From Mycoavidus cysteinexigens (GTDB taxonomy: Bacteria; Pseudomonadota; Gammaproteobacteria; Burkholderiales; Burkholderiaceae), in NCBI GenBank assembly GCA_031963445.1, contig JASSUH010000002.1:78772-142771 (forward strand): a DNA stretch of 64,000 nucleotides. The letters are read 5' to 3'. Made by a program: the position numbers and the translations under genes. A model generated the notes under the pieces. It saw nothing but the letters and a program-made list of their open reading frames with translations. It ran no database searches and was not told where the DNA came from. Position 1 is the stretch's first letter; each line of letters begins with the position of its first letter. Below, piece by piece: positions 10,731 to 45,868 of the stretch.

Positions 10731-10969
10731 TTGAAAAAATCGAGCTCTGGGCGCTCTTGCTGCGGTAGCTGCTCACTGGTTGCTTGCACGAAATCGTCAT
10801 CTAAAGAACCGACTAGCGGACTTAACCAAGCCCAATCATGTGCAACAGGTTCAAGAATCACTGAATTGCCATGCCGCCGAATGCGTACTTCCTCAGTTTC
10901 AAAACGATATGCCTTGGGCAGCCTAACGGCCTGTGAACGGCCTGACCAGAATATTCTTGCGGTTTCCAT
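10727..10969 (-). CDS. vapB: Type II antitoxin VapB (AbrB/MazE SpoVT-type)
   Basis: N-terminal ...GRSQAVRLPKAYRF... motif, 80 aa, overlaps vapC. Confidence 0.85.
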   Translation of the reverse strand: METARIFWSGRSQAVRLPKAYRFETEEVRIRRHGNSVILEPVAHDWAWLSPLVGSLDDDFVQATSEQLPQQERPELDFFK

Positions 10970-11245
10970 AGAATTCTCCTGATTGGTATATTACAAAAGT
11001 ATATATCAACTATTATATGTTTGTGCAGTCTTGAGCCGCAACATAGTTTCGATGCGCCAAGTAGTCATTCAGCGACGTTAAATTTTTTTTGCTAGCTTAG
11101 AATCAAACATACTCGTAATGGGGAAAGGCAAATCCTGAGTTCACCGGTCAGTTCGCAACTCCATTTATTCTCAACGACCCCTTTCTCTCGCTGATGGTTC
11201 AGCAGGTCCCCTCATGTAAAGGAATGGAAAAGGCTGTACTTGTCT

Positions 11246-28292: not shown

Positions 28293-28673
28293 ATGATGCA
28301 AAACAGTACTTTTGTAGGAAAACTTGTTAGAAATCCAGTTTTAACTGTCAATAATGAGTGTGATGTTTGTAAATTTACATTGATATCTAACGAATTTATT
28401 GAAAAAGACAAAGAGTCGGGAGAAATTCGTGAGCGTGTTGTTTGCGTTCAATTTACTGCATTTAAAGATAAAGCAAAAGTCATTGCTAAACATACATTAA
28501 AAGGAGACCAGTTGCATATTGGCTATCGCATAGAAAATAATCATTATATAGATAAAACAACAGGAGAAGATGTTTATGGATATAACTTTATTGTTAAAGA
28601 ATTTGAATTTGGTTCGCATGGAAAATTGACGCGAGATAAATTTAATAACAGTTATTCAAAATATAATCAGTAA
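28293..28673 (+). CDS. ssb: SSB-like OB-fold single-stranded DNA-binding protein lacking the acidic C-terminal tail
   Basis: The pattern N..F.GKL.R.P.L........V.KF.L......K....GE.RE.V..VQFTAF...A..IA....KGD.L.I.Y......Y.D..G..VY....IV..FEFG parallels bacterial SSB. Confidence 0.65.
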   Translation: MMQNSTFVGKLVRNPVLTVNNECDVCKFTLISNEFIEKDKESGEIRERVVCVQFTAFKDKAKVIAKHTLKGDQLHIGYRIENNHYIDKTTGEDVYGYNFIVKEFEFGSHGKLTRDKFNNSYSKYNQ

Positions 28674-28741
28674 ATTATATTGCCCTTGCTTTGGTGGTAG
28701 AGGTATTTATATTGAATTTTTTTAAAATTTGGAGAGATTAA

Positions 28742-29551
28742 ATGTTACTAGATCATACATTAGATAGCGAAGTACATTCTTTATTTGACCATGTCTGTAT
28801 TAAAGAAATGATGGAAAAAAGGCAATTGAGATTGAATAGTTTTATTAAAATAATAGAAACATCAAAATTTAGAAAGGAAGGCTATAAAGAATCGTGTATT
28901 CCTTTTTATAGGGATTATACAAATTTAAATAACACGGGAAGAAGTTTTATAGGCTATAGATATCATGAGTATTTAGAAATTTCAGACGAAAATATGGGGC
29001 TAATAAAAAAAGATAACGACTGTAGCGGATGGTTATTTTTAATGGAAAAATCAGGCTTGTATCACTATATGGATAAAAAATCTAAGGAAGAGTGGGAGGG
29101 AATAATAAATAGAGGTGATTTTTTAGAGTTGAATTGTAAAAATATAGTAGATACTTTTAGGCCGTACTTTAATAATAAAGAAAAAATGTTTAATAGCAGT
29201 GTGTTAGATTTATTTAAAAGTATTTCTTGGGATAGGGAAAATAATAAACCTTTGGAAATAAAAAGAAAAATAATTACCTCTAGGAATGATGTATTGGATA
29301 ATTTAATTCGGATATTTTGTATTTTAAATAAAAAACCGCAATTAAATATTAATATGTACAGCGCTGTAAGGGCGGTATGTAGGAATGAGGGGGATAAGTG
29401 GGAGTGCGATGATTTCTTTATTCGTTGGTATAACAATGGAAACTACCATGTTATCTTTAAAGATAGTCCAAATTTAAAATTTAATGTTACATTAAAAAAT
29501 ATAAATAACATAGCAATGTCTGAGTACGCTAAAAATATTAACGATAAATAG
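28742..29551 (+). CDS. Hypothetical leading-region protein; paralog of 35904..36815 (possibly DUF4942-like)
   Basis: Shared W.FL.EKSG.Y.YMD.K....W.......DF...N.KNI...F. The C-terminal ...W.C..F.I.W..NGNYHV.F pattern recalls DUF4942 from memory only. Confidence 0.55.
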   Translation: MLLDHTLDSEVHSLFDHVCIKEMMEKRQLRLNSFIKIIETSKFRKEGYKESCIPFYRDYTNLNNTGRSFIGYRYHEYLEISDENMGLIKKDNDCSGWLFLMEKSGLYHYMDKKSKEEWEGIINRGDFLELNCKNIVDTFRPYFNNKEKMFNSSVLDLFKSISWDRENNKPLEIKRKIITSRNDVLDNLIRIFCILNKKPQLNINMYSAVRAVCRNEGDKWECDDFFIRWYNNGNYHVIFKDSPNLKFNVTLKNINNIAMSEYAKNINDK

Positions 29552-29573
29552 TTTTTGAAATGGATTTTATAAA

Positions 29574-30716
29574 ATGAATAATATAAGAAAAATTCAGTAT
29601 TTTATCGAAGAGTTAAAGAGCAGAGACAAATATGTCAGACGTACAGCCGTACAAGCATTAGGCAAGCAAAAAACATTGCTCTCAAAGGCAATGGCATCTT
29701 TGACTTTTTCAATGCAAAAAGATGATTGTGAGTATGTTCGCGCTGAAGCAGCTTGGATATTAAGCAGACAAGAAACCGTACCTCTTGAAACGGTACTGGC
29801 CTTGGTCGCTTTGGTTAAAGATAAAAGCTCGTATATCAGGGATGTGGGAGCAACAATATTAAGCATAAAAAAAATGCTGCCAGATGAAGCCATTGCGGCG
29901 TTGATCTTTGCGATGGAGCATGAATATGAAGAGGTACGTTGGAGTGCTACCAGAGGATTAAGCGGGCAAAGAATGCTGCCCTATAAAGCGATCTTGGCTT
30001 TGATTTTTTCAATAACGAAAGAGGATGAGGATAGAGATGTCAGGATCGGAGCAGTCAAAGCATTGGCAAACCAAAAAGTTTTGCCTCCCCAGGCAATCTC
30101 AGTCTTGTTTTCTTTACTGATGAATAAAAAAGAAAAAGCAAAAGTTAGAGAAGAAATTGCTAAAGCATTACAAAACCAAAAAACACTGCCAGTCGAAATG
30201 ATTGAAACTTTAGTCTTGCTCATGATGAAAGAAGATGAAATCGCGATTATTCGTGAAACTGCTTATCAAATACTGGTTAGACAAAAAAAGCTTCCCCTCG
30301 AGATAGTTTTAAATTTGAACGATATCATGATGAAAAATGAGGGTAAGTATATTAGGATAATGATTGCTTCAATATTAAGTAGGCAAAAAATGTTGCCCAC
30401 AAAAATAATTCAAGACTTTATCCCTATAATATTAAATAAAGATGAAAATATATTTATTAGGCATGAAATTACTAACGCATTAAAGCATCAAAAAATGCTG
30501 CCTCCTGATACGATTTTAGCCTTATGTTCTGCAATTGAGGATAAGGAAGCAGAAAAAAATGTCAAATGGGATGCCATCCTTATATTAGGTGGACAGAGAA
30601 CGCTGCCTTACAATGTGATCTCCATTTTGGATATTGCAACGAAAAATAAAGATGGACACATTAGCAGAGCTGCCACTGAGGCATTAGCGGGAAGAGGCAG
30701 CGCTAGTGACGTGTAG
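29574..30716 (+). CDS. HEAT-repeat (PBS-lyase-type) protein
   Basis: About ten units of the type VR..A..AL..QK.LP.E.I..L...... Confidence 0.8.
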   Translation: MNNIRKIQYFIEELKSRDKYVRRTAVQALGKQKTLLSKAMASLTFSMQKDDCEYVRAEAAWILSRQETVPLETVLALVALVKDKSSYIRDVGATILSIKKMLPDEAIAALIFAMEHEYEEVRWSATRGLSGQRMLPYKAILALIFSITKEDEDRDVRIGAVKALANQKVLPPQAISVLFSLLMNKKEKAKVREEIAKALQNQKTLPVEMIETLVLLMMKEDEIAIIRETAYQILVRQKKLPLEIVLNLNDIMMKNEGKYIRIMIASILSRQKMLPTKIIQDFIPIILNKDENIFIRHEITNALKHQKMLPPDTILALCSAIEDKEAEKNVKWDAILILGGQRTLPYNVISILDIATKNKDGHISRAATEALAGRGSASDV

Positions 30717-30802
30717 TATTGATTACGCCATACATTCAAGGGTCTGAAATGACCTCTTCTCATAGCAATATATTCAACATTCCTCCAAACAATAAAAATA
30801 TC

Positions 30803-30877
30803 AGGGCGTTCCCCCGGCAAAGCCGGGGTCGGGCTTTCGCGCTACGCGTCGAGCCGGTCTACGCCAGTCTCGCCCCT
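30803..30877 (+). repeat. Composite structured element, copy 3, left part (interrupted by the group II intron)
   Basis: AGGGCGTTCCCCC...GCCAGTCTCGCCCCT is colinear with copy 4 up to the intron junction. Confidence 0.8.
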
Positions 30878-33315
30878 GTCGGGTAGCAGCAACCCATTAC
30901 TGAGTCACCGCCCCCAAAGAACGTAACGTGCAACTTTCGCTGCATTACGCTCAGGTATAACAAAAGTCTCGTTCTGAGACCGGCTTCATGATTTTCAAAT
31001 CAAGGCTGTGGACTTGGGCATGGCAGGTGGGATGGAGCAATACTCGATTGCTAAGAGCATCGGTGCCACCATTCATACGGTATTCAATATGATGATCATG
31101 CCAGCCGGTGTCGATATCCATCTCGAACGCACAGAGCGCACACAGGCCTTTTTGAGCTACGTATAGCTTGGCCCACTGGTATCGATAGCCATTATTTTTC
31201 AACAGGCGCTCCTGCCGGATGGTCTCACCATACATTTCCCATTCAGGATCATACGGATGGTATGTGTTCCTGACTTTCTTGTGTCGCTTGATGGGCGTAC
31301 TAGAAAGAGAGTACAGCTCTATGAGTCTCTGACTGCTTTTCTCTCGTTCCATTTCTGCTGCAAACACCCAATGCCGATTACCGACTTCATGCCAATATTT
31401 CTGGCGTATCCATCGACGATTTTTGTTTGGGTGTCTGCGACATGCCCAGCGCCAGAGCAGTCCAAACAAAAGCGATGCTATACGGGAGAATGATTGCTTG
31501 GCACTGGCTGGACGATGGTATTGAGCCCAACCCCGCAGTATAGGATTTAGCAATCGGATTAAATTTGATTGCTTAGCCCCTAAATTGTCGTTGATGACGT
31601 TCCTGATCTTTTCATAGAATGCTTGTGCATTTTTCTTACTTGGCTTGATGAGCAGTTTTTCCGAGTATTTACGGAAATGCCACCCAAGGAAATCGAATCC
31701 TTCATAGATAGATACGATACGTGTTTTGCTTGGAGAGAGTCGCAATCCTCGCTGAGCAAGAAAAGCTTCAATCCACGGTTTGATCTCAGTTTCCAGCACT
31801 TCTTTTGAGTTGCAGGTCACCACAAAATCGTCGCAATAACGTACTACACCCACTTTCTGTTTCCGAGTTTGGCCTACACCCCATTTTCCTTTTAAATGAG
31901 CAATGAGCTGTACTTCCAAACCATTCAACGTCCAATTGGCTGCCGCTGGTGAAATGATTCCTCCTTGCGGGACCCCCGCGGTGGTCTTTTGCCATTGCCC
32001 TCGATCAATGACCCCAGATGCCAGCCACTTGCGTAGCATCGATTTGTCCATGCAGACATTGTCTAGCATCCAGTCTCTTGAAATTTGATCAAAGAAGCCT
32101 TCAATGTCCGCATCTAGCACCCATTTAGCTGAGTTCTTTTTAGCCATTAGGATGAAGATTTGTTCCATCGCATCAGCGGTACAGCGGTTTTTCCTAAATC
32201 CATATGAATTTGGATCACTCACTGATTCCAAAACCGGGTCTAGAGCTAGCAGATAGAGTGCCTGCATAGCCCTGTCGCTCATGGTGAGTATGCCCAATGG
32301 GCGTTCTTTCCCATTTGACTTTGGGATGTAAACCCTTCGTACAGGTGAGGGTTTATACCGCTGCTTCTTTAATTGGGTAATAGCAGTGAACTTTTTCTGT
32401 GATGTATCCCACAGTTCATTGTCCACACCAGCCGTTTTTTTACCTTGATTTTCAGTCACTCGTTTAACTGCTAATGCTTTCGCACTAAACGAGCGAGTTA
32501 GCATCCGTTGTAGCGCTTTCACGCGACGCCATTTGCCACTCTGTGATGCCTTCGTTAAGCGACGCTGTACCACTCTCACATTCGTTTGTACTCGCTTCCA
32601 GTCAATGGAAGTCCAGTCTGTAGGAGTGTGCGAGGACGCAGAACCGATTGAAAGACTGTCGGTTACTCTCATGCTTTTCCTCGAATAATCGAAACCAACC
32701 GATTACGTAAGTGGCCTCAGTGGCTTACGACTGTTATACCCCGCAGAAGTGGGCACTCTTTCGAGCTGGGACAAAGTTTGAATCCCTATCCAGCGCATTA
32801 CACGCCAACCTTCGCTTTTTCTGCGATCCTCTGCCCGCTCCACCAACAGCGTCCCTTGCGGGTTACCTGCCACCTCTGATGATCAGAGGAGTGGCGGTGA
32901 ATCGGGTTTACCGCGTTCCACGTCAATGACACGAGTAGGGTAGGTTCTGCCTATTTGCCGATGGTCTTGTGGGTCCGTGTATTCCTAGTCCGAAAAGAAA
33001 TAACCGATCATGTGCCTTTTGGCTCAAGCCTGTCAGCGCTTTTGGCTTGTTGATTGTGACGACATTTATTAGCAGTTCACTTATATTAACCTTATTACCC
33101 AGCCTAGCACCTCATCCGCCTTTGCGCTGGCAGATAGCACCTCCCACTCACGAGGGATGTGCCGCTCTTATGAGCAGGTTACATTGTCACGGCGGCTCCA
33201 CACAGGGCCGTTACCAACCCTGCATGCGCCGATAGGCTACGACTGACGGAACAGTCGGTTTCTCTATCTGCCGTTAGGCAGATGAAACAATCATTGACGC
33301 AACTTCGCGTCGCAC
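30878..33315 (-). mobile_element. Intact group II intron (about 2.44 kb)
   Basis: The minus strand begins GUGCGACGCG at 33315. Domain V GAGCGUAAUGCAGCGAAAGUUGCACGUUACGUUC lies at 30919-30952. The domain VI stem ends ...CUACCCGAC at 30878. Joining the flanks recreates the uninterrupted sequence of copy 4. Confidence 0.9.
30951..32672 (-). CDS. Group II intron-encoded protein (RT - maturase - HNH endonuclease)
   Basis: RT motifs including YCDDFVV, a maturase X region, and C-terminal CALC...HHIEY...GG.D...N..LLHP.CH..VH (HNH). Confidence 0.95.
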   Translation of the reverse strand: MRVTDSLSIGSASSHTPTDWTSIDWKRVQTNVRVVQRRLTKASQSGKWRRVKALQRMLTRSFSAKALAVKRVTENQGKKTAGVDNELWDTSQKKFTAITQLKKQRYKPSPVRRVYIPKSNGKERPLGILTMSDRAMQALYLLALDPVLESVSDPNSYGFRKNRCTADAMEQIFILMAKKNSAKWVLDADIEGFFDQISRDWMLDNVCMDKSMLRKWLASGVIDRGQWQKTTAGVPQGGIISPAAANWTLNGLEVQLIAHLKGKWGVGQTRKQKVGVVRYCDDFVVTCNSKEVLETEIKPWIEAFLAQRGLRLSPSKTRIVSIYEGFDFLGWHFRKYSEKLLIKPSKKNAQAFYEKIRNVINDNLGAKQSNLIRLLNPILRGWAQYHRPASAKQSFSRIASLLFGLLWRWACRRHPNKNRRWIRQKYWHEVGNRHWVFAAEMEREKSSQRLIELYSLSSTPIKRHKKVRNTYHPYDPEWEMYGETIRQERLLKNNGYRYQWAKLYVAQKGLCALCAFEMDIDTGWHDHHIEYRMNGGTDALSNRVLLHPTCHAQVHSLDLKIMKPVSERDFCYT

Positions 33316-33728
33316 TCGGGCTTCAATCCCTAGCGCACGCGCCTTTGGTGCTTCAAAAACCTAATTAGCCTACGGCCCTGTCGGGCCTTCGTATGGGTGC
33401 TCGCCGCACAGCTTTTTGCGCCGGTGAATTATTTTTCATTTCCCGTCCTTCCTGAGTTCGTCACTTTACCTGAGACATTAGCCCGCCCCTTGGGACACTG
33501 CAAGGGCCGCCTTCGGCTGAAATGCAATCCCGTTCAGTGCTCGCCTACGGCTGTGCTCCGCGTGCGGCAAGGCATTTCTCCCTTGCAGTGTCCCAAGGGG
33601 TGGGCTAACGAAAACGCACAGCGACGAACTCAGGAAGGACGGGAAATGAAAAACAAATGCCAATTCCACCTCAACAAAAAAATCTTAGCTCAGCTCCGAA
33701 TCTTGGAATCCGGGAAGTTTTTAAAAAC
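33316..33728 (+). promoter_or_regulatory. Composite structured element, copy 3, right part (rest of module A + hairpin 33432-33653 + tail)
   Basis: TTTTTCATTTCCCGTCCTTCCTGAGTTCGTC pairs with GACGAACTCAGGAAGGACGGGAAATGAAAAA. The inner stem is CCCCTTGGGACACTGCAAGGG / CCCTTGCAGTGTCCCAAGGGG. The conserved tail is present. Confidence 0.8.
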
Positions 33729-33936
33729 TAAAACTATATTTTTTATTTTTTAAATAAAGGCTTTATGTATGAATAAAGAAAATGTTGAAAATAATAATTT
33801 ATAAAATACAGCAAAAGGAGGTCAGGTGAAAATATAAATTTTACTCTATATAGTTTATATAAAATTTAATTTCCGTTATGAAGAAAATATTAAAGCATCA
33901 GAATTTATGCTTGCGCTCAAGATAGGAGAAGATGAA

Positions 33937-34305
33937 ATGACTCAACGCATCTTAAAAACCTCAATAAATGAATGTGCTGTAAACGTCTTAATGGGTTGGG
34001 ACAGAGCCTTGCAGTATTATTTTATGGTAATTAATTACGTTGATAGCGATGATGAGCCGCTATACAGTAATCTTGATGATGACGACGCCGGTATAAATAT
34101 AAAAAATGAACTACCCTATTTTTTAAAAAAAGCTCGTTCATTTAATATCAAGATACCAGAAGCAATGATTGCCAGGTTACAAGCGGATAAGACATTGAAC
34201 CTTGGTAATGAAAAATCATTTTTTAATGAAGATTGCACAGAACCTACAATTAAATCCATGCTTAAAAAAATATTAAAAATATTTTTGAGGCCGATAGGTA
34301 TTTAA
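33937..34305 (+). CDS. Hypothetical protein; paralog of 8372..8806
   Basis: Starts MTQRILKTSIN after an AGGAG. See 8372..8806. Confidence 0.6.
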   Translation: MTQRILKTSINECAVNVLMGWDRALQYYFMVINYVDSDDEPLYSNLDDDDAGINIKNELPYFLKKARSFNIKIPEAMIARLQADKTLNLGNEKSFFNEDCTEPTIKSMLKKILKIFLRPIGI

Positions 34306-34437
34306 TTAAATATTTAATATGTTTTAGAAATATTTGTAATTGAGTTAAAACTGCTTAATTTTAATGGTGAGTTTTCTTCGTTAGAGGAGACATCTTAGGC
34401 AGGTTTTTTTAATCTAAATTTTTGGAAAGCACTTAAC

Positions 34438-35220
34438 ATGAACCATTACGAAGAAAAACAAGCAGCTCGTAAAGCGCGACTTGAAGAATTGGCAATAAAA
34501 GCTGAAGAGCAAGCAGATAGCCTTAATAACCGAGCGAAAGAAATGGCTAGCGTAATCCCATTTGGTCAGCCCATTATCATCGGCCATCATTCAGAAGGTA
34601 CTGATCGCCGGTATCGCGCACGCATACATAATATGTTTCATAAGGCTTATGCGTTGCGTGAGAAAGCTGAAACCTATCAGGACAAAGCCTTGTCCGTTGG
34701 CAACGGGGGCATCTCATCCGATGACCCAGAGGCCATTATCAAGCTGCGTGAAAAGCTAACCAAACTTGAATCGATACAAGAAAAAATGAAGGAGGCGAAT
34801 AAGTTAGTGCGGCGTAAGGATCGCACAGGTTTAACGCAATTGGGATTTTCAGAAGAGTCTATTGATAAGTTGTTAATGCCAGACTTCTGTGGTCGTTTGG
34901 GTTTCCCTAAGTTTGAGCTACAAAACAACAACGCGAATATTCGACATATCAAATTGCGCATTCGGGCATTAGAAGAGCTAAGACAGCGTTCTGATAAGGA
35001 ATTGCAAGGTGATGGTTATATCTATAAAGAGGACGTGGAAGATAACCGCATTTTGTTTATTTTCCCTGGTAAGCCGGACGAGGCGACCCTTAGTATGTTG
35101 AAGCACCACTCTTTTAAGTGGAGTCAGAAACGTAAAGCCTGGGTACGGCAGCTAAATAACCGTGGCTTGTGGGTAGCTGAGCAAGTGAGAAAAATATTAG
35201 ATAACGCATCTCGTGATTGA
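34438..35220 (+). CDS. DUF3560-family protein (typical plasmid/ICE leading-region gene)
   Basis: The pattern ...RA.RL...A.KAE..A........A..IPFGQPI..GHHSE...RR......N...KA..L..KA..Y..KA......ISSDDP.AI.KLR.KL..LE..QE.MK..N matches my memory of DUF3560. Confidence 0.7.
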   Translation: MNHYEEKQAARKARLEELAIKAEEQADSLNNRAKEMASVIPFGQPIIIGHHSEGTDRRYRARIHNMFHKAYALREKAETYQDKALSVGNGGISSDDPEAIIKLREKLTKLESIQEKMKEANKLVRRKDRTGLTQLGFSEESIDKLLMPDFCGRLGFPKFELQNNNANIRHIKLRIRALEELRQRSDKELQGDGYIYKEDVEDNRILFIFPGKPDEATLSMLKHHSFKWSQKRKAWVRQLNNRGLWVAEQVRKILDNASRD

Positions 35221-35384
35221 TTTTTACAACAAGAAAAATACGAGAGCATGCAACTCACTTTAAAACGAAACGGCCTATCTCTTTCTGCTCTGTCAGTACT
35301 GCCTCTGCGGGGCTAACAGAGCAGAGTAGCTTAAATTTCATTTATATCTTTTTATCTCTCTCATTAATAAAAATCCTAAGTATT

Positions 35385-35882
35385 AGGGCGTTCCCCCTTC
35401 GGGGTCAGGCTTTCGCGCTGCGCGTCGAGCCTGACTACGCCAGTCTCGCCCCTTCGGGCTTCAATCCTTAACGCACGCGCCTTTGGCGCTTCAAAAACAT
35501 TAATCAGCCTACGGCCCTGTAGGGCCTCCGGATAGGCGCTTGCCGCGCGGCTGTTTGTATCGGTGGGTTGTAGTTTTTCATTTTCCGTCTTCCGTCTTCC
35601 TGAGTTCGTCACTTTATGTGCAAAGTTAGCGCACCCCTTTGGACACTACAAGGGCCGCCTTCGGCTGAAATTCAATCCCGTTCGGTGCGCGCCTACGGCT
35701 GTGCTCCGCGTGCGGCAATGAATTTCTCCCTTGCAGTGTCCAAAGGGGTGCGCTAACAAAAACGCACAGCGACGAACTCAGGAAGACGGAAAACGAAAAA
35801 TGAAAAACAAATGCCAATTCCACCTCAACAAAAAAATCTTTGATCAGCTCGAAATCTTGGAATCCGGAAATTTTTTAAAAAC
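35385..35882 (+). promoter_or_regulatory. Composite structured element, copy 4 (uninterrupted; hairpin 35575-35807; tail ends 22 nt before the next ATG)
   Basis: Near-identical to copy 3 over module A, the hairpin and the tail. Confidence 0.8.
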
Positions 35883-35903
35883 TTTTTATAGGATGATTGG
35901 AAA

Positions 35904-36815
35904 ATGCTAGAAAATATGGAAATAGATGATAATTTTATTGGGTTAATTTCTTGCGATGAGATAAAAGAAATTTTAGATAAAAAAGACGAAGCATTAGAGA
36001 TTGCGGAAAAAGGCATGCATCTAATTGAATTATCAAATAAGATTTCTAATAAAATTAATACTGAAAATTATACTAATGGTATAAATGAAGATTTTGATTG
36101 TATTGGCTCTTTTAATCGCCTTAAATCTCTAGACAAGCAAAGCATGATGTGTGCATTAGAAAAAGATTGGAGCAAAAAGATATGGCAATTTTTAGCAGAA
36201 AAGTCTGGAATATATGATTATATGGATTCTAAGACATTCGGTGGATGGAGTAACAGGGTAAGTAACAATGATTTTCCTGATATTAATATTAAAAATATAA
36301 AAGAAATATTCAAAGAATATTTCTCTAGGTTAGAAATAATGATTGATGAGAATGTAATAAATTTGTTGCATTCTTTTAATTTTAAAAATCACCTCCCAGA
36401 AAAAATAATTATTAAAGATTTAATATATGATGATCCTTTTGAGCATAATTATAACGACGAAAAAGTAGATGACGAAGATGAATATTTTTATGTTGTAGGT
36501 GTGTCAAAAATAAATAAATTGTTAAATGTATGCTATATGTTGGATAATAAATTTAAAGAAAAATGTGATATAAAAAATAATTTGATCGAAACGTTAAAGT
36601 CCGGTGAGAATGAATGGAAATGTGAGTATATTACTGTTTCTTGGAAGCAAAGAGTAGGTTTTTTAAATATCACTGATAAATTAGTTTTTAAAAAAATAAC
36701 TGATATTATAAAAAAGAAAATTTCTGAAAAATTTGATGAGAATGAATATGATAAGATATTAGCGTTTGATGAGGAAGAGTATGGATATGATGGATATGAA
36801 AATGAAGTGCCATAA
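35904..36815 (+). CDS. Hypothetical leading-region protein; paralog of 28742..29551
   Basis: See 28742..29551. Very AT-rich, with an acidic C-terminus. Confidence 0.55.
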   Translation: MLENMEIDDNFIGLISCDEIKEILDKKDEALEIAEKGMHLIELSNKISNKINTENYTNGINEDFDCIGSFNRLKSLDKQSMMCALEKDWSKKIWQFLAEKSGIYDYMDSKTFGGWSNRVSNNDFPDINIKNIKEIFKEYFSRLEIMIDENVINLLHSFNFKNHLPEKIIIKDLIYDDPFEHNYNDEKVDDEDEYFYVVGVSKINKLLNVCYMLDNKFKEKCDIKNNLIETLKSGENEWKCEYITVSWKQRVGFLNITDKLVFKKITDIIKKKISEKFDENEYDKILAFDEEEYGYDGYENEVP

Positions 36816-36985
36816 ATAATTAAATATATAAAAATTTACTGCTTGTAAATAAAAAATTTAGGCTAGTTATTATGCTAGTCTAAATTTGGTTTTCTAATTA
36901 CAAATATCTTTATCCACTTATGCCGAGAAATAATGTATAAACAAATTTTCTGTATATACGGGGCTGGCCCCGCACCCCTAAAAAT

Positions 36986-37082
36986 CGCTCACACACCACG
37001 CAACTAACGTTGCAGGCGTGAAACCCTCTATTGATAAGGGTTATAGCTGTCAGACACATAAATAACTCGTGTCAGACACATA
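36986..37082 (-). promoter_or_regulatory. Candidate oriT (TrwC/R388-type hairpin plus nic core on the minus strand, and accessory-protein repeats)
   Basis: The minus strand reads GCAAC-GTTA-GTTGC GTGGTGTGT|GAGCG (37013 to 36986). R388, from memory, reads GCACC-GAAA-GGTGC GTATTGTCT|ATAGC. Two direct TGTCAGACACATA repeats lie at 37049-37061 and 37070-37082. The IR AAACCCT...AGGGTT lies at 37021-37042. Confidence 0.55.
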
Positions 37083-37122
37083 TACATGATGAAATCGCTC
37101 AACCCCTGATGAGATATAGAAG

Positions 37123-37548
37123 ATGCCGAAGATAAAACGGATTAGAAAAAAGGATGATAATCGAGTGACGTTTCGGCTTGATGAAGATACACGGCAATTT
37201 TATAAAGCGGAGGCAGAGTCTCGTAATATCGATTTATCTGAATACATCCGTCAATCTGTGATGCGTGGCTTGATTAGTGATAATGCTGAAAAAATTCAAG
37301 AAAACTTTATATATATAACTTCTAAGTTTCTAGAAGAATTTATAGATACAGCTTCTAAGGTTCAAGAAAACGGGAAGAATGTACAAGCCGCTATTCCTGA
37401 TGAGGTAATACGATCTATTTTTACTATTGAAGAAATACTTAAAAAATTAGTATTAAGTGAGAATATACAAGCCTACTATAAAGTAAAAGATAATGCGCAA
37501 GCTAGGTTGGAAGAACTTAAAAGTGAATCAAATAGCGTGATTGAGTGA
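37123..37548 (+). CDS. Ribbon-helix-helix relaxosome accessory protein (TrwA/TraY/MobC-like)
   Basis: The N-terminal basic arm is followed by RVTFRLDEDTRQFYKAEAESRNIDLSEYIRQSV (RHH pattern). The gene lies immediately beside the oriT candidate. Confidence 0.6.
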   Translation: MPKIKRIRKKDDNRVTFRLDEDTRQFYKAEAESRNIDLSEYIRQSVMRGLISDNAEKIQENFIYITSKFLEEFIDTASKVQENGKNVQAAIPDEVIRSIFTIEEILKKLVLSENIQAYYKVKDNAQARLEELKSESNSVIE

Positions 37549-37567: not shown

Positions 37568-38650
37568 TTAGAAAATAAATTCTATCTCTTGATTTTTCTC
37601 ATTCTTTATACCTTTATAGCTAAATTGATGTGAGATTAAATTATTCCCTGCTAAGTAAATGAGTTCAATATTTGTTTTTGATGACCTTAATTTCTGCAGT
37701 AAAAAATGCATTCCAGAGGGATTTATGCAGTTATAACTTATATTTAAATTCTTTAAGTCTTTTCGTAAGGAGTGAATTATATTATATAAACCTAAGTCAC
37801 CTATTTGGTTATGACTTATATCTAAAGTCTCAATGGCAATATGTTTAATATAATCTGAAAAATGGATTGCTCTTTTTTCGCTCATGTTATTGTTACTTAA
37901 ATTTAATTTAATAATAGTTTTTTCTTTCAATGCCATGCCTAACTGATATATTGCTGAATCATTATTAATGTTACTATTTTTTAGGCTTAAGTAATGAATG
38001 GCATAAAGCTGTCTATTATTATCTAATGTCTGTGATAATTTCTCGGTAAATAGCTTGAAATTTGAAGAAAAAATGCTGTCAGCAATAATAGAAAGGCTTT
38101 CTATATTTGTTTTGCGAGACAATAAGTTAAGCACAAATAAATTTTTTCTTATCTTGCCTTTGCTAATGTCAATCGAAATATGCTTCGTTTTGCTCAAAAT
38201 AATTTTAATACCGTAGTAGGCTTGAGCATCATTAAAGCTGCTTTTGATATTGCAGATGGTTGATTTGCAGGTGTTTCTTTTGTTTCTGTCGTTGGCTGAT
38301 AGATTTTGATCTATAAATTTCTCATGCTCTTTTAATTTCTTTAAAAAATTTATATCGCTGCAAATTGAGCTATGGTATTTTGATTTTTTATAATATACGC
38401 TTTTTAAAAAATCATTGAGTCCTGAGTAAAATGCTTTGTTGACTCTTGATATGATATATAGTTGAGTTACGGATTTAATCGGCTCATAATTATGTATTAT
38501 GTAGATGAAAATTTTAAATATCAATTCTATCGGTAAGTCTAACTCTCTTTCGTGATGGTTATTTATACCGTCTTTTAATTTTGGTTGAAATGAAGAAGAA
38601 AGCAATGAAGGGTGCTGGCTTGAAGAGATATTGATAGAAGAAGAAAACAT
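37568..38650 (-). CDS. F-box + leucine-rich-repeat (RNI-type) protein; eukaryote-like effector candidate
   Basis: F-box-like LPIELIFKIFIYI...ISRVNKAFY. C-terminal LRRs (LNLSNNNMSEK.., LDISHNQIGDLG.., LNISYNCINPSG..). Confidence 0.75.
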   Translation of the reverse strand: MFSSSINISSSQHPSLLSSSFQPKLKDGINNHHERELDLPIELIFKIFIYIIHNYEPIKSVTQLYIISRVNKAFYSGLNDFLKSVYYKKSKYHSSICSDINFLKKLKEHEKFIDQNLSANDRNKRNTCKSTICNIKSSFNDAQAYYGIKIILSKTKHISIDISKGKIRKNLFVLNLLSRKTNIESLSIIADSIFSSNFKLFTEKLSQTLDNNRQLYAIHYLSLKNSNINNDSAIYQLGMALKEKTIIKLNLSNNNMSEKRAIHFSDYIKHIAIETLDISHNQIGDLGLYNIIHSLRKDLKNLNISYNCINPSGMHFLLQKLRSSKTNIELIYLAGNNLISHQFSYKGIKNEKNQEIEFIF

Positions 38651-38757
38651 GATTTATCTCGTCTTTAATTTTAGTTTTTTATATACAAATATCAGTAGCG
38701 TGTAATATATATGATTGAGATAAATCTATAGCAGAGAAATGCGGTTAAACGTGTCTT

Positions 38758-40137: not shown

Positions 40138-41880
40138 GTGATAAAGCGTGATGGACGGGGAAATATAGGCAGTCTCTCACGTGGCACGGAACTGTGGCTC
40201 AATCAAGCTCGATTTTTTCTCGCCGCATTCAAAGCTATTTTGATAGTTGCTGTGCTGTCAGGTATATCAACTATCGGTATTTTTTCCTGGAAGACTATCA
40301 CGCCCAATGAACGCTATGCGGTAGAGCGCTATGTGCTTGCACAGGCGCTAGAGGGGTTGCCTATAGCGAACGATAAGATGGATTTAAATGTCAATGGACG
40401 TCTTTATCAGCTGGAAGCCAAGAAAGTCGTTTATTTGACAGAGCCAATGATCAATGAAGTACTGCAAAAACTTCAAAAGGCTTGTTTATGGGGACTATGC
40501 GCAGCGTTGGGCGCTGGATTGGTGGCTGCCTACTTGTGGTGGCGCTATGGCAAGCAAAAAATCACCGATAAACGATTGCGCGGGGCGCAATTAGTTAAAG
40601 GCGCGGAATTAACGAGCTTAATGCGCTCGCGCTCGGATGCTAGTCCTTACCTGATTGCAGGTGTACCCATGCGTCGTGATGCTGAAATGCTGCATAGTTT
40701 ATTTTGCGGCGCACCAGGTACAGGTAAGTCCCAACAATTTTTTGCCTTGATGCGGCAAATTCGTGCACGGGGTAAGCGCATGATTGTGTATGACCCAACC
40801 GGAGAATACACACAGGCTTTTTACCGCGAGGGCAAAGATATTCTGATGAACCCATTAGATGTTAGAAGCCCAAATTGGACTATTTGGCATGAAATTGAGA
40901 AGAACTACCACTTTGACAATATTGCCAGCGGGTTGATGCCTGATCCCATTAAAGATGACCCATTCTGGGTAAAAGCGGGGCGCATGGTGCTTAAAGAAGT
41001 CTTTCGGGCATTAGGCGAGGCAGGAAAGCGTACAAACGGAGATTTATATCAAGCCATTGCTAATAGCAATTTGCAAGAAATGTATACGTTATTGAAAGAT
41101 ACACCAGGCTCAACGTATGTTGATCCGCTCACTGAGCGTACAGGTATGTCAATCAAAATGACGGTGCAAAATCAATTGGAATCGTTTCGTTTTTTGCATG
41201 ATGAAGGCGAGCCTTTTTCAATTCGGCAGTGGGTACAAGAAGAGAGTGATACTTGGATGTTCATTACGGCCCGTGAATCGCTGCGTGAAGCGCTAAAACC
41301 TGTGCTTTCACTTTGGGTCGATATTGCGATTAAAGCAGTATTGGATCTGAGTCCGATTCACCAGGAGCGTCTTTGGTTTGCACTAGATGAATTACCAACG
41401 CTACAAAAGCTCGATATTTTGAAATTAGCGATCACAAATGGCCGAAAGTATGGCTTATGTTTCGCGTTGGGCATGCAAGACTTGCCTCAGCTTTACGCTA
41501 TTTACGGGCAAGAATTCGCTAAAACCATCATTTCAAGTTGCCAAACCAAATTATTGCTACGAGTGACAGATGGTGAAGCCGCTAAGATGATGTCAAAACT
41601 GATGGGGCAGGTAGAAGTCGATGAAAAAGAAGAAACGTTTAACTATGGTCTAAATAGCCATCGGGACGGGGTGAGTGTGTCAGCGCGCCGAGCGATGCGT
41701 GACATTGTTCTTCCTTCAGAAATTCTGACTTTGCCTGATATGGCAGGCTATTTAATGGCGCCTGGCGACTACCCGATAGCCAAGGTAAGTTACCCTTATG
41801 TACCTATACAAAAAATAGCAGAGGGATTCATCGAGCGCACTCAATTTGATGTGAATTTTGAATCAATGCTTGCTGTTTAA
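40138..41880 (+). CDS. traD: Type IV coupling protein (TraD/TrwB/VirD4 family)
   Basis: N-terminal TM helices, Walker A GAPGTGKSQ and Walker B WFALDELP. GTG start. Confidence 0.9.
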   Translation: MIKRDGRGNIGSLSRGTELWLNQARFFLAAFKAILIVAVLSGISTIGIFSWKTITPNERYAVERYVLAQALEGLPIANDKMDLNVNGRLYQLEAKKVVYLTEPMINEVLQKLQKACLWGLCAALGAGLVAAYLWWRYGKQKITDKRLRGAQLVKGAELTSLMRSRSDASPYLIAGVPMRRDAEMLHSLFCGAPGTGKSQQFFALMRQIRARGKRMIVYDPTGEYTQAFYREGKDILMNPLDVRSPNWTIWHEIEKNYHFDNIASGLMPDPIKDDPFWVKAGRMVLKEVFRALGEAGKRTNGDLYQAIANSNLQEMYTLLKDTPGSTYVDPLTERTGMSIKMTVQNQLESFRFLHDEGEPFSIRQWVQEESDTWMFITARESLREALKPVLSLWVDIAIKAVLDLSPIHQERLWFALDELPTLQKLDILKLAITNGRKYGLCFALGMQDLPQLYAIYGQEFAKTIISSCQTKLLLRVTDGEAAKMMSKLMGQVEVDEKEETFNYGLNSHRDGVSVSARRAMRDIVLPSEILTLPDMAGYLMAPGDYPIAKVSYPYVPIQKIAEGFIERTQFDVNFESMLAV

Positions 41881-43039: not shown

Positions 43040-45868
43040 ATGATTAGCCTAAATAATGTAGGAAGCGCAGGGCAGGCGCTGCATTATTTCTCAAAAGATA
43101 ATTACTACACAAAACAAGATGGCTTAGCGCATTCTGAGTGGTTTGGTAAAGGCGCAATACGCTTAGGTTTGACAGGGAAAATCGAGCAGCAGCCTTTCCT
43201 CAATCTCTTGCGCGGCAAAATAGAAAATCAGCAATTAGGAAAATGGGTCAGAAATCTTGAAACAGGCGAGAAAGAGCGTCAGCATCGACCAGGTATTGAT
43301 GTCACCTTTTCTGCACCTAAGAGCGTGTCGATTTTGGCAGAAATCTTTGGGCAACAGGATGTGCGAGAGGCCCACGAAGCAGCAGTTAAAGAAGCACTGA
43401 CTTATATTGAAAAAAATCTGATTGCGACGCGCATTACTCAGAACAGAGAGACCACAGTAGTAAAGACCAGCAATATGATGGTGAGCTTATTTCGCCACAA
43501 TACTAGCCGAGACTTAGATCCCCAAACGCATACGCATGCCGTCATTATGAACGCCACTTTATGCGAGGATGGGCAATGGCGCTCGTTGATGAACGATGAC
43601 ATTTACCGTGCGCAAGGCGTCATAGGGGCGATCTATACCTCTGCGCTGGCAGAAAAATTACAAACACTAGGTTACGCATTAGAACGCACGGATGCGCGTG
43701 GCAATTTTGAAATTGCAGGTGTTAATCATGAGCAACTTGCGCATTTCTCTCAAAGACGCGCACAAATCACTGCTGCGTTAGAGGCAAAGGGCATTTCCAT
43801 TCAAGAAGCCAGCGCGCAACAAAAAGAAGACGCCACGCTTAAAACTCGCTCCCATAAAAAATCCGTAGATCATGACGTTTTAATGGAGGAATGGCAAACA
43901 CGCGCCCAAAACATGGGAATCGATTTTCAATCCATTCAAGACAGAGCGCAATCCAATCAAAAAGAGCAGGTCTCAACCCGTGATAATCCGTTGACTGGCT
44001 TACAGGCCATGCAATTCGCTGTTGAGCATTTGGGTGAACGCGAAGCAGTATTTTCTCCGTTAGATTTAATGGAGACGGCTATCCAGCACAGTGTGGGCCG
44101 TACGTCTCCAGAGGATGTAGAGCAGGCTTTTGCACACTTGGAGGATATCGGGGAGCTAATTGCATTACCTAATGACCAATACACTACCAAACGCATGTTT
44201 CATAGCGAGAAGCGTACTCTCGACCAAATACTTGTGCAACAAGGACAAGTAGTTCAAATCATGACGCCAGAAACCGTAACAAAGCGGATTGTACTGGCAG
44301 AGCAGCAACAACGTATAACCTTCACACCAGGTCAAAAGGATGCAATTCGTCAAACGCTAGCAACGGAAGATCGGTACGTCGCTATACAGGGTTTAGCAGG
44401 AACGGGCAAAACCACCATGTTAAACGCGCTGCGGGAAATAGCGACTGAACAAGGCTATACCGTGCGCGGCATGACTCCTACGGGTGCGGCTAGTAAAGTT
44501 TTGGCGCTGTCTACAAAGATACATGCTGATACTGTCCATATGTTCCTCATCCGTGAAAAAAGGTTACAAAAGGATATCGACTTTGCTAAGCAGTACGCGC
44601 CTCATTTTGTGCGAAAAAGTGAATTGTGGATTATCGATGAAAGTTCTTTTTTGTCGCAGTATCAAAAAGAGGCGATTGATAAGACTGCGTTAAAAGCAGG
44701 GGCGAGAGTTGTATACGTTGGCGATATGTTGCAGTTGCAGGCCGTAGAGGCCGGTAAGCCTTTTGAGTTGGCACAAAAAAACGGTATCGAAACGGCCTAT
44801 ATGACAGAAATAAGCCGACAAAAAAGCAAAACCTTAAAGCGAGCGGTGGATATCGTAGTCGGTCGGGATCAATTACAAGAAGGACAGCGTTTAACTCAGA
44901 TTGAATTGAATCGTAATACGCATGCTTTTTCCTATATGGATAAAGTCGGTATGGTCTATGAAGTGGAATCAGAGTTAATAAAGGCGGTCGCTAATTGTTA
45001 TCTCAATTTGGAACCTGCAAAACGAGAGCGCACGATTGTATTTACCGCTTTTAATAAAGATAGAGTAGAGATCAATGAAGGAATACGTGAAGGGTTAAAA
45101 GAATTGGGGGAGTTGGCGTCGCACGAAAAAAAATGTGAAATCCTGGTCTCCAAAGGCTGGACACGAGCCAAGATTAAAGAAGCCCAATATTACACAAAAG
45201 GCGATGTGGTGCGCTTTGGCCGTGATTACAAAAGTATGAATATTAAAAAGGGCGAATATGCACGTGTATATTCTGTCATTGAGAAATCAGGTTCCCTTGT
45301 ACTGCAAAAATCAGATAATAAAGCGCTTACTTGGACACTTCGGAAGCATAATAAGCTTGAAGTGTACGACGCTGAAACCCGCCCTCTGGCCGTTGGGGAC
45401 TTAATCCGTTTTACCCGAAATGGGGAAGTATGTAAAAACGGAGAAGTTGCGCGTGTGAAAAACATAACTGACCAAAAAGCCTCTCTAGAGCTTTGCCGAG
45501 ATGCAGCCCCCTCTTTATATGAAGTGGATCTCTCAAAGTCCTGTCATTGGGATCACGCATACGCCGTCACCGTTCATAGTGCGCAGGGAAGTACCCAGGA
45601 GCGAGCTATTTTTCATATTGATATCAAGCAAGATGAAAAACGCTCGGAAAAAGCGGAATTAGCGCAAATGGCAAAAATATTTGGCGCACGTAGTTTTTAC
45701 GTTGGCGTGACGCGAGCAAGCCATGCGTTAAGGATTTATACGAATGACAAAGAAAAAGCAGAAAAAGCAATCTGTGCTCGTCTAGATAAGACTAGCGTAA
45801 TAGAGACTATGCAAAATCATGAGAAAACACGGACCTCTATACAGAAGCAACAAGGGATGAATAGATAA
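43040..45868 (+). CDS. traI: MOBF relaxase-helicase (TrwC/TraI family)
   Basis: The N-terminus is colinear with my recollection of TrwC (A..YF...NYY.K......W.GKGA..LGL.G; DVTFSAPKSVS; FRHNTSRDLDPQTHTHAVIMN). Helicase Walker A is GLAGTGKTT. Confidence 0.92.
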   Translation: MISLNNVGSAGQALHYFSKDNYYTKQDGLAHSEWFGKGAIRLGLTGKIEQQPFLNLLRGKIENQQLGKWVRNLETGEKERQHRPGIDVTFSAPKSVSILAEIFGQQDVREAHEAAVKEALTYIEKNLIATRITQNRETTVVKTSNMMVSLFRHNTSRDLDPQTHTHAVIMNATLCEDGQWRSLMNDDIYRAQGVIGAIYTSALAEKLQTLGYALERTDARGNFEIAGVNHEQLAHFSQRRAQITAALEAKGISIQEASAQQKEDATLKTRSHKKSVDHDVLMEEWQTRAQNMGIDFQSIQDRAQSNQKEQVSTRDNPLTGLQAMQFAVEHLGEREAVFSPLDLMETAIQHSVGRTSPEDVEQAFAHLEDIGELIALPNDQYTTKRMFHSEKRTLDQILVQQGQVVQIMTPETVTKRIVLAEQQQRITFTPGQKDAIRQTLATEDRYVAIQGLAGTGKTTMLNALREIATEQGYTVRGMTPTGAASKVLALSTKIHADTVHMFLIREKRLQKDIDFAKQYAPHFVRKSELWIIDESSFLSQYQKEAIDKTALKAGARVVYVGDMLQLQAVEAGKPFELAQKNGIETAYMTEISRQKSKTLKRAVDIVVGRDQLQEGQRLTQIELNRNTHAFSYMDKVGMVYEVESELIKAVANCYLNLEPAKRERTIVFTAFNKDRVEINEGIREGLKELGELASHEKKCEILVSKGWTRAKIKEAQYYTKGDVVRFGRDYKSMNIKKGEYARVYSVIEKSGSLVLQKSDNKALTWTLRKHNKLEVYDAETRPLAVGDLIRFTRNGEVCKNGEVARVKNITDQKASLELCRDAAPSLYEVDLSKSCHWDHAYAVTVHSAQGSTQERAIFHIDIKQDEKRSEKAELAQMAKIFGARSFYVGVTRASHALRIYTNDKEKAEKAICARLDKTSVIETMQNHEKTRTSIQKQQGMNR

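What the first reader, a model, noticed from the sequence alone, without database searches (positions are those of the whole stretch)
36986..37122. Candidate oriT with an R388/TrwC-type hairpin and nic core
On the minus strand the sequence CTGCAAC-GTTA-GTTGCGTGGTGTGT|GAGCG has the same layout as the TrwC substrate I recall for R388 (GCGCACC-GAAA-GGTGCGTATTGTCT|ATAGC). Both have a short hairpin followed by GCGT-N3-GT-N-T and then the nick. This places a predicted nic between 36991 and 36990. Between it and the RHH gene (ATG at 37123) lie a 22-bp inverted repeat (37021-37042) and two identical 13-bp direct repeats, TGTCAGACACATA, spaced 21 bp apart (37049-37061 and 37070-37082). Such repeats are typical of accessory-protein (TrwA/TraY-like) binding sites. 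The relaxase N-terminus is clearly TrwC-like. The hairpin lies on the tra-gene side of the nic, as in R388.
Basis: partly seen in the sequence, partly recalled or inferred. Interest (0 to 1): 0.6.

Follow-up and report, generated by a model that had tools for sequence, protein, structure and literature searches.

The report
Plasmid transfer origin, MOBF type
This short intergenic stretch is very probably the origin of conjugative transfer of a 192-kb plasmid-sized replicon in a Mycoavidus-like fungal endosymbiont; it is an ordinary member of the well-known R388/F (MOBF) kind, useful mainly because it pinpoints the likely nick site for a whole group of Burkholderia-type plasmids.

Summary
On the minus strand, 37015-36986 reads CTGCAAC-GTTA-GTTGCGTGGTGTGT|GAGCG. 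I confirmed the R388 and F comparison texts in database records. Small corrections: the first 13-bp repeat is 37048-37060, the repeat spacing is 22 bp, and the "22-bp inverted repeat" has only 6-bp arms.

The site lies 132 bp upstream of an RHH gene, a TrwB-type coupling protein and a TrwC-type relaxase. A complete F-type mating apparatus sits on the same 192-kb contig. The core meets every published MOBF nic requirement: G17, T18, T21, T23, GTGT at 22-25 and a purine at 26.

The exact 16-mer occurs twice in the 2.93-Mb genome, each time about 130 bp upstream of one of its two TrwC operons. It recurs, with at most one mismatch, at the same place in 7 of 7 relaxase-anchored relatives, down to 48% relaxase identity. 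One of these is pBCJ2315/Ptw, whose 700-bp oriT is experimentally functional. The direct repeats keep 22-bp phasing, and their sequence co-varies with the RHH β-strand.

This is a new member of a known kind. The added value is that it places the likely nic site for Ptw-type oriTs, which the Ptw authors reported they could not find.

The parts
36959..36978 (-). A GC-rich inverted repeat (CGGGGC-tg-GCCCCG, 36959-36972) overlapping the conserved box GCCCCGCACCCC (36967-36978). On the T-strand it lies 12-31 nt 3' of the predicted nick.
   Evidence: Present in all relatives. One compensatory change is seen: GTGGGGC/GCCCCAC in L029 and L033 against GCGGGGC/GCCCCGC in L035. It forms a hairpin in the DNA fold. 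Its role is unknown.
36989..37004 (-). Nic core plus the proximal (3') hairpin arm: GTTGCGTGGTGTGT|GA. The predicted nick lies between 36991 and 36990 on the minus (transferred) strand.
   Evidence: The exact 16-mer occurs only twice in the genome, both times upstream of TrwC operons. It is invariant in relatives. It fits G17/T18/T21/T23, GTGT at 22-25 and a purine at 26 (PMC4176350).
37000..37015 (-). Nick-proximal hairpin, the equivalent of IR2. It consists of GCAAC (37013-37009), the loop GTTA and GTTGC (37004-37000), plus a T-G wobble. It is the presumed recognition site for the relaxase.
   Evidence: It is in the same register as R388 IR2 and the F inverted repeat. The C3 paralogue is identical.
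37022..37042 (.). Second inverted repeat, AACCCT-N9-AGGGTT. It is weak here and strong (10-11-bp arms flanked by A and T runs) in free-living relatives.
   Evidence: The position is conserved while the sequence differs between plasmids. Its role is unknown.
37048..37060 (+). Direct repeat 1, TGTCAGACACATA. It contains the palindrome TGTC-A-GACA and is the presumed RHH operator half-site.
   Evidence: The 22-bp phasing and the position are conserved in 10 of 12 distinct oriTs, and the sequence co-varies with the RHH β-strand.
37070..37082 (+). Direct repeat 2, TGTCAGACACATA.
   Evidence: Same evidence as direct repeat 1. In Denitratisoma and Acidovorax plasmids an extended -10 (TGCTATAAT) directly follows repeat 2.
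37123..37548 (+). Ribbon-helix-helix accessory (relaxosome) protein, 141 aa, with the β-strand RVTFRL.
   Evidence: Pfam NikA-like, 28 bits against a cut-off of 27. NCBIfam MbpA and RelB hits are below their cut-offs. It aligns with the PtwA-type proteins of relatives.
40138..41880 (+). Type IV coupling protein of TrwB/TraD type.
   Evidence: Pfam TrwB_AAD_bind, 1.6e-121.
43040..45868 (+). MOBF relaxase-helicase of TrwC type, 942 aa.
   Evidence: Pfam TrwC 6.3e-85 plus AAA_30. It is 33% identical to TrwC and conserves Y16, Y22/Y23, the D of GIDVTFSAPKS and the H...HTH motif. PDB search.
28293..36815 (+). Leading-region side. It carries SSB (28293-28673), DUF3560 (34438-35220) and DUF4942 (28742-29551 and 35904-36815), all on the + strand and transcribed toward the nick.
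   Evidence: R388 likewise carries ssb and DUF3560 on the leading side, pointing toward its nick.

Best explanation
Window 36959-37122 is the origin of transfer (oriT) of the 192-kb replicon C2. This replicon is a conjugative MOBF/MPF-F plasmid of a Mycoavidus-like endofungal bacterium.

Inferred mechanism, by homology with R388 and F:
1. The TrwC-type relaxase (43040-45868) recognises the proximal arm of the small hairpin (37015-37000, minus strand).
2. It threads the following single-stranded GTGGTGTGT into its U-turn pocket and cuts between T36991 and G36990. It becomes covalently joined to the 5' G.
3. The minus strand is then unwound and exported 5' to 3' through the coupling protein and the F-type apparatus. 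The SSB/DUF3560 leading region (lower coordinates) enters the recipient first, and the RHH-T4CP-relaxase genes enter last.
4. The RHH protein (37123-37548) binds the two 13-bp repeats set two helical turns apart (37048-37082). This helps assemble the relaxosome and probably autoregulates its own operon.

Shown here: the sequence anatomy, the gene content, the conservation and the covariation. Inferred: the cleavage position (uncertain by about 2 nt), RHH binding, and present-day activity.
For: - Anatomy at the stated coordinates.
- An adjacent Dtr module made of RHH, T4CP and a TrwC relaxase. The catalytic Tyr, Asp and His residues are conserved. So are TrwC's DNA-contact residues R81, S89, Q159, N182 and D183, which touch G17, T18 and T23 (with PMC4176350).
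- Intact F-type genes TraE, K, B, V, C, U, TrbC, N, F, H and G on the same contig.
- The nic core meets all published MOBF rules. It aligns in register with verified R388, F and R100-type sequences.
- Relaxase-anchored test, not selected by the motif: all 7 loci that retain the accessory gene carry the 16-mer with at most 1 mismatch, on the correct strand, 118-566 bp upstream of that gene. They are C3, L005, L002, L026, L027, L028 and L029, with relaxase identity 48-80%.
- One of those loci, pBCJ2315/Ptw, has an experimentally functional oriT within the 700 bp that contain the motif (PMC4853378).
- Genome-wide the 16-mer occurs only at the two TrwC operons.
- Repeat phasing and RHH covariation.
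- Leading-region gene content and orientation fit the predicted polarity.
Against: - There is no experimental nicking or mobilisation data for this element.
- The hairpin is short, at 5 bp plus one wobble.
- The second inverted repeat is weak here.
- The consensus scan found no sigma-70 promoter between the nick and the RHH gene.
- The Dtr operon is interrupted by two reverse-strand LRR genes and a YhcG nuclease gene.
- Related endosymbiont copies are decaying. L004 has lost the RHH, the oriT and most of the T4CP. L005 and the Mycetohabitans plasmid have weakened hairpins.
- Self-transfer of the related Ptw plasmid was not detected (PMC4853378).
- The generic hairpin-plus-core layout has 4 unrelated hits in the chromosome.
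Confidence: 0.85

Rival explanations
1. This is a relic oriT. The sequence is a true homologue of a MOBF oriT, but the replicon no longer transfers because it is repressed or decaying in a host-restricted endosymbiont. On this reading the site is currently non-functional, or serves only as an operator.
For: - The relatives live inside fungi.
- The Dtr operon is split by inserted LRR and YhcG genes.
- The second inverted repeat is degenerate compared with free-living relatives.
- The closest relaxase relative, L004, sits in a wrecked module.
- L005 and the Mycetohabitans plasmid have weakened hairpins.
- Ptw self-transfer was undetectable (PMC4853378).
Against: - All Dtr and MPF-F reading frames on C2 are intact.
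- The nic core and hairpin are identical in two paralogous copies whose relaxases have diverged to 68% identity and whose RHH proteins have diverged to 41%. That implies purifying selection on the site.
Confidence: 0.12
2. The conserved block is mainly a transcriptional control region (promoter and operator) for the RHH operon, and the real nick site lies elsewhere.
For: RHH proteins are commonly autorepressors. The direct repeats abut an extended -10 in two relatives.
Against: - The most conserved bases are the hairpin arm and the GTGGTGTGT|GA core, about 120 bp from the ATG, and not the repeat or promoter part, which varies.
- In Burkholderia plasmids the core lies 450-580 bp from the accessory gene, too far for an operator.
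- The core satisfies the relaxase-specific nucleotide rules.
Confidence: 0.02
3. This is a chance resemblance to the R388 or F nic region.
For: The generic layout has 4 other hits in this genome. A 16-mer with 3 mismatches is expected 0.15 times per window.
Against: The position, strand and exact sequence recur upstream of homologous operons in many genomes, and the reversed control gives 0 hits.
Confidence: 0.01

Closest known systems
oriT of the Ptw plasmid / pBCJ2315 of Burkholderia cenocepacia (PtwA-PtwB-PtwC; Fernandez-Gonzalez et al. 2016, PMC4853378)
   Same: It belongs to the same plasmid clade, MOBF relaxase with an F-type MPF. The relaxase is 53% identical. The gene order is the same: RHH accessory gene, T4CP, an optional inserted gene, then the relaxase. 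The hairpin and core are the same with one mismatch (GCAAC-aac-GTTGCATGGTGTGT|GA), and they lie inside the 700-bp fragment shown to be a functional oriT.
   Different: The core lies 566 bp from ptwA, against 118 bp here. The repeat set differs. The host is a free-living opportunist rather than an endofungal bacterium. The Ptw nick site was never mapped, and the authors reported finding nothing like the R388 nic.
R388 (IncW) oriT with TrwA-TrwB-TrwC
   Same: The relaxase architecture matches, and TrwC is the closest solved structure. The operon order and polarity are the same, with the hairpin on the trwA side of the nick. The loop is 4 nt, the proximal arm ends in TGCG, and there are 8 nt to the nick. 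G17, T18, T21, T23 and T25 are identical. Both have DUF3560 and ssb on the leading side.
   Different: The U-turn reads GTGT where R388 has GTCT. Positions 19, 20 and 24 differ. The mating apparatus is F-type, not the MPF-T type of R388. The accessory protein shows no significant sequence similarity to TrwA. The nick-to-gene distance is 132 bp, against 156 bp in R388.
F / R100 (IncF) oriT nic region with TraI
   Same: An inverted repeat is followed by GCGT-N7 and the nick. The 11 bases 5' of the nick differ from the R100-type sequence at one position and from F at one position. The mating apparatus is F-type. A further inverted repeat lies 3' of the nick.
   Different: TraI of F is a 1756-aa protein and a more distant match (E 4e-47, against 5e-62 for TrwC). 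F uses TraY, TraM and IHF rather than a single small RHH encoded next to the coupling protein.

Membership tests
MOBF-type oriT (TrwC/TraI nic region) | A cognate MOBF relaxase encoded nearby, with the paired-tyrosine and histidine-triad motifs | tested here: met
   Pfam TrwC 6.3e-85. The alignment to TrwC conserves Y16 (matching Y18), Y22/Y23 (matching Y26/27), the D of GIDVTFSAPKS and H...HTH. PDB TrwC 4.7e-62.
MOBF-type oriT (TrwC/TraI nic region) | An inverted repeat immediately 5' of the nick, whose proximal arm ends in ..TGCG, with 8 nt to the cleavage site | tested here: met
   The window reads GCAAC-GTTA-GTTGCG-TGGTGTGT|G. It is in register with database-verified R388 and F sequences.
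MOBF-type oriT (TrwC/TraI nic region) | Critical nucleotides G17, T18, T21 and T23, GTGT (or GTCT) at 22-25, and a purine at 26 (Carballeira et al. 2014) | tested here: met
   The window reads G17 T18 G19 G20 T21 G22 T23 G24 T25 | G26. The rules are taken from PMC4176350.
MOBF-type oriT (TrwC/TraI nic region) | Intergenic position beside the Dtr operon, hairpin on the Dtr side, and leading-region genes on the other side | tested here: met
   The arrangement is the same in R388.
MOBF-type oriT (TrwC/TraI nic region) | Site-specific cleavage by the relaxase, and cis-requirement for mobilisation | not testable with these tools
   This needs nicking and mating assays. The only functional data are for the relative Ptw (PMC4853378).
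Ptw-type oriT clade (betaproteobacterial MOBF + MPF-F plasmids) | The conserved core GTTGC(G/A)TGGTGTGTGA upstream of the accessory gene, T4CP and mobF | tested here: met
   It is exact in C3, L001, L002, L005, L027, L028 and L029, and has one mismatch in L026 (pBCJ2315).
Ptw-type oriT clade (betaproteobacterial MOBF + MPF-F plasmids) | An F-type mating-pair-formation gene set on the same replicon | tested here: met
   TraE, K, B, V, C, U, TrbC, N, F, H and G lie at C2:146337-164687. Relatives are typed MPF_F.
TrwA-like accessory protein and its binding sites | A small ribbon-helix-helix protein encoded first in the Dtr operon | tested here: met
   Pfam NikA-like, 28 bits against a cut-off of 27. 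It aligns as an RHH with PtwA-type proteins and with TrwA.
TrwA-like accessory protein and its binding sites | Sequence homology to TrwA itself | tested here: not met
   BLASTP gives E 0.07-0.3 and 18% identity in the alignment. The protein is an analogue, or a very distant homologue, and should not be called a TrwA family member. The Ptw authors say the same of PtwA.
TrwA-like accessory protein and its binding sites | Specific binding to repeated sites in the oriT | not testable with these tools
   Only indirect evidence is available: 22-bp phasing in 10 of 12 oriTs, and repeat sequence that tracks the β-strand (RFNIRL with GGCGACAC; R[VI]T[FI]R with G[GT]CAGACAC; PITLRL with CGCATACAC).

The most novel reading that the evidence does not exclude
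The two co-resident replicons, C2 and C3, carry an identical relaxase recognition core. Their accessory-protein operators differ (TGTCAGACACATA against GTGGCGACACCGA), and their RHH proteins are only 41% identical. On this reading the RHH-repeat pair, and not the relaxase-nic interaction, decides which plasmid is processed. This would be a natural case of oriT specificity set by the accessory protein.

The same conserved core would also explain the unexplained published result that R388 TrwC mobilises the Ptw oriT 'with no apparent homology'.

A much more speculative extension is that this relaxosome and T4SS, which sit among eukaryote-like LRR, WD40 and HEAT genes, act on the fungal host.
Probability: 0.3. 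Interest if true: 0.45.

Novelty: new member of a known kind. Interest (0 to 1): 0.3.

Why it matters
- It gives a nucleotide-level, testable nick-site prediction for the plasmids of Mycoavidus-like endofungal bacteria. Mobility of the related Mycetohabitans plasmids has so far been predicted only from relaxase and MPF typing (PMC12696581).
- The same prediction extends to the whole Ptw-type MOBF/MPF-F plasmid clade of Burkholderiales. In pBCJ2315/Ptw the conserved hairpin and core lie inside the experimentally functional 700-bp oriT, where the authors reported no R388-like sequence. This offers a simple explanation for the low-level recognition of that oriT by TrwC.
- A minimal oriT of about 170 bp would be a practical tool for moving DNA into or between hard-to-manipulate endofungal bacteria.
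- The paired C2 and C3 oriTs form a natural system for asking how accessory proteins set oriT specificity.

Beyond that, this is a textbook oriT.

Tried and rejected
- The accession BR000038 for R388 is not in the collections. R388 was found by searching the nic text instead.
- A single-protein scan of genome contigs with the relaxase returned only 3 loci. The comparative set was therefore built from plasmid tblastn hits and whole-genome pattern hits.
- The first Python attempts to read L004 and L005 failed because each file holds several records. This was resolved.
- L004, which has the closest relaxase (89%), was expected to give the best oriT comparison. It has no RHH, no oriT and only a T4CP fragment.
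- Direct homology of the RHH protein to TrwA was rejected.
- The consensus scan found no sigma-70 promoter between the nick and the RHH gene. The autoregulation idea therefore rests on relatives only.
- The 10-bp repeat AAATCGCTCA (36982-91 and 37092-101) was considered as a second nick-like site. It was rejected as unsupported because it is only partly conserved in C3, L005 and L037.
- The extended stem CACGCC/GGTGTG, which would sequester the nic core, is only loosely kept in relatives, so no claim is made about it.

Full report
**1. What is in the sequence**

The minus strand from 37015 down to 36986 reads CTGCAAC-GTTA-GTTGCGTGGTGTGT-GAGCG. The stem is GCAAC (37013-37009) paired with GTTGC (37004-37000), plus a T-G wobble, and the loop is 4 nt.

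Three details need correcting:
- The two exact TGTCAGACACATA copies lie at 37048-37060 and 37070-37082. The spacing is 22 bp, not 21 bp.
- The "22-bp inverted repeat" has only 6-bp arms, AACCCT and AGGGTT at 37022-27 and 37037-42.
This lies on the far side of the nick and is conserved in all relatives.

As single-stranded DNA the T-strand folds far better than shuffles (z = -5.25).

**2. The comparison sequences are real**

In that record the hairpin lies on the trwA side of the nick, 156 bp from trwA. The F nic text matches NC_002483.1 at 100%. An IncF plasmid supplies the R100-type variant GCGTAGTGTGT|GG.

Aligned in one register, all sequences share the skeleton TGC-x-T-xxx-GT-x-T before the nick. 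The window differs from the R100-type core at 1 of the 11 bases 5' of the nick, and from R388 at 3 of 11.

Carballeira et al. 2014 (PMC4176350) report three rules:
- G17, T18, T21 and T23 are critical for TrwC.
- Positions 22-25 read GTGT in most MOBF plasmids.
- Position 26 is a purine.

The window reads G17 T18 G19 G20 T21 G22 T23 G24 T25 | G26 and meets all of them.

**3. Gene context**

The following genes lie downstream on the + strand:
- a 141-aa RHH protein at 37123-37548 (Pfam NikA-like, just above the cut-off)
- two reverse-strand LRR genes at 28% GC
- a TrwB-type coupling protein at 40138-41880
- a YhcG nuclease gene
- a 942-aa TrwC-type relaxase-helicase at 43040-45868

The relaxase is 33% identical to TrwC over its full length (E 3e-135). 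It keeps the catalytic tyrosines, the aspartate and the histidine triad. It also keeps the TrwC residues that contact G17, T18 and T23, namely R81, S89, Q159, N182 and D183. The closest solved structure is TrwC, ahead of pCU1 TraI and F TraI.

The window lies on a 192-kb contig (C2) of a 2.93-Mb, five-contig genome. The same contig carries an intact F-type set, TraE, K, B, V, C, U, TrbC, N, F, H and G.

On the other side of the nick lie an SSB gene, a DUF3560 gene and two DUF4942 genes. All are on the + strand and point toward the nick. That is the orientation expected of leading-region genes if the minus strand is transferred. R388 has ssb and DUF3560 arranged in the same way.

The closest public relaxases (80-89% identity) are in Mycoavidus cysteinexigens MAGs. 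The host is therefore probably a Mycoavidus-like endofungal bacterium.

**4. More than chance**

The generic layout, a hairpin followed by GCGT-N3-GT-N-T-R, occurs 6 times in the genome, against roughly 0.6 expected. The layout alone would therefore not be convincing.

The exact 16-mer GTTGCGTGGTGTGTGA occurs only twice in the genome. One copy is in the window and the other is at C3:23388-23403. Each is on the correct strand, about 130 bp upstream of one of the genome's only two TrwC operons. Across 201 genomes of the family it occurs 13 times in 11 genomes, including 5 of 7 in the same genus. The reversed control pattern occurs 0 times.

**5. Comparative test**

I used loci chosen by their relaxase rather than by the motif:
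- the C3 paralogue
- the Mycoavidus MAG L005
- Denitratisoma pI
- Mycetohabitans
- Acidovorax pAOVO01
- B. cenocepacia HI2424
- pBCJ2315

Their relaxase identity to the window ranges from 80% down to 48%. All seven carry the 16-mer with at most one mismatch, upstream of the accessory gene, on the same strand, 118-566 bp away. An independent blastn search also picked out exactly this block in 64 plasmids.

In the alignments, the invariant stretch is the proximal hairpin arm plus the nic core, and the flanks vary. L004, the closest relaxase relative, is a decayed remnant with no RHH, no oriT and only a T4CP fragment.

**6. The repeats**

In 10 of 12 distinct oriTs a pair of 12-13-bp direct repeats starts 58-62 nt from the core. 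The spacing is exactly 22 bp, or two helical turns. The repeat sequence varies together with the RHH β-strand:

| RHH β-strand | Repeat sequence | Where found |
|---|---|---|
| RFNIRL | GGCGACAC(C/G)GAA | C3, Mycetohabitans, Acidovorax, L036 |
| R(V/I)T(F/I)R | G(T/G)CAGACAC(A/C)TA | window, L005, L037 |
| PITLRL | CGCATACACCGA | Denitratisoma |
| RLTLRL | GGCAGACACCCA | B. glumae |

This is the pattern expected of operator sites for the accessory protein. Shared ancestry is not corrected for, and binding is inferred. In two relatives an extended -10 (TGCTATAAT) follows repeat 2, which suggests autoregulation. No consensus promoter was found in the window itself.

The RHH protein has no significant similarity to TrwA. 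It works like TrwA but should not be filed as a TrwA family member.

**7. Link to experiment**

Fernandez-Gonzalez et al. 2016 (PMC4853378) studied the region upstream of ptwA in the Ptw plasmid, using the pBCJ2315 sequence (NC_011003), which is my locus L026. Their findings were:
- The 700-949 bp upstream of ptwA is a functional oriT.
- It was mobilised at about 4e-5 when ptwABC were supplied in cis.
- It was mobilised at about 1e-7 by R388 TrwC.
- They wrote that they found nothing in the 700 bp resembling the R388 nic site.

The clade-conserved hairpin and core, GCAAC-aac-GTTGCATGGTGTGT|GA, lies at L026:1466-1502, which is 566 bp upstream of ptwA and inside that fragment. No later paper in the library places the Ptw nick. 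The recent Mycetohabitans plasmid survey does not mention oriT.

**8. Verdict**

This is a genuine oriT of the MOBF kind. It belongs to the Ptw-type clade, which combines a TrwC-like Dtr module with an F-type MPF. The nick is predicted at 36991/36990 on the minus strand.

It is a new member of a known kind and is not surprising to a specialist. Its modest added value has three parts: the clade-wide nick-site assignment, the clean repeat/RHH covariation, and the two co-resident plasmids that share a nic core but differ in their operators.

The main residual doubt is whether the element is still active in this endosymbiont.

Noticed in passing
Genome contig C3:17525-23420 (locus L014:5526-11423): A second, compact RHH-T4CP-TrwC module lies on a 71-kb contig, with no inserted genes. 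Its nic core and hairpin are identical to the window's. Its direct repeats differ (GTGGCGACACCGA twice, 22 bp apart). Its relaxase is 68% identical and its RHH 41% identical to the window's. C3 also has its own F-type TraC.
   Followed up: yes
L026:1466-1502 (pBCJ2315 / Ptw plasmid, NC_011003): The clade-conserved hairpin and nic core, with one mismatch, lie inside the experimentally functional 700-bp Ptw oriT. The authors reported finding no R388-like nic there. This probably explains why TrwC can mobilise that oriT.
   Followed up: partly
window 37568-39990 and 41887-42975; L005:6937-8058; L026, L028: The Dtr operon seems to have two 'cargo slots'. Reverse-strand LRR genes sit between the RHH gene and the T4CP in both the window and the Mycoavidus MAG L005. 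The slot between the T4CP and the relaxase holds YhcG here and a DsbD-N-domain gene in several Burkholderiales plasmids.
   Followed up: partly
L004 (Mycoavidus MAG JASSUL010000011.1), 1-13000: The relaxase closest to the window's (89%) sits in a decayed module. The T4CP is reduced to a 245-aa C-terminal fragment. There is no RHH gene and no oriT core within 10 kb, and an amino-acid permease and a BrnT toxin gene lie upstream.
   Followed up: partly
window 36982-36991 and 37092-37101: An exact 10-bp direct repeat, AAATCGCTCA. One copy spans the predicted nick and the other lies 22 bp before the RHH start codon. It is only partly conserved in C3, L005 and L037, and its meaning is unclear.
   Followed up: partly
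window 36997-37020: The nic-proximal hairpin can extend into a longer imperfect stem, CACGCC paired with GGTGTG, which would sequester the nic core in the folded T-strand. Relatives keep this pairing only loosely.
   Followed up: no
window 36854-36887: A 14-bp-stem, AT-rich terminator-like hairpin lies after the DUF4942 gene, between the last leading-region gene and the oriT.
   Followed up: no
Genome contig C1:56556-57689: The 2.64-Mb chromosome carries a third F-type TraC (863-aa open frame). Other TrwB-like fragments also occur on the chromosome (C1:135867, 83792 and 2637820), which suggests an integrated element or its remnants.
   Followed up: no
window 140-1861 and 30951-32672: There are two copies of a 573-aa group II intron reverse transcriptase/maturase with an HNH domain. 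One lies within the leading-region block.
   Followed up: no
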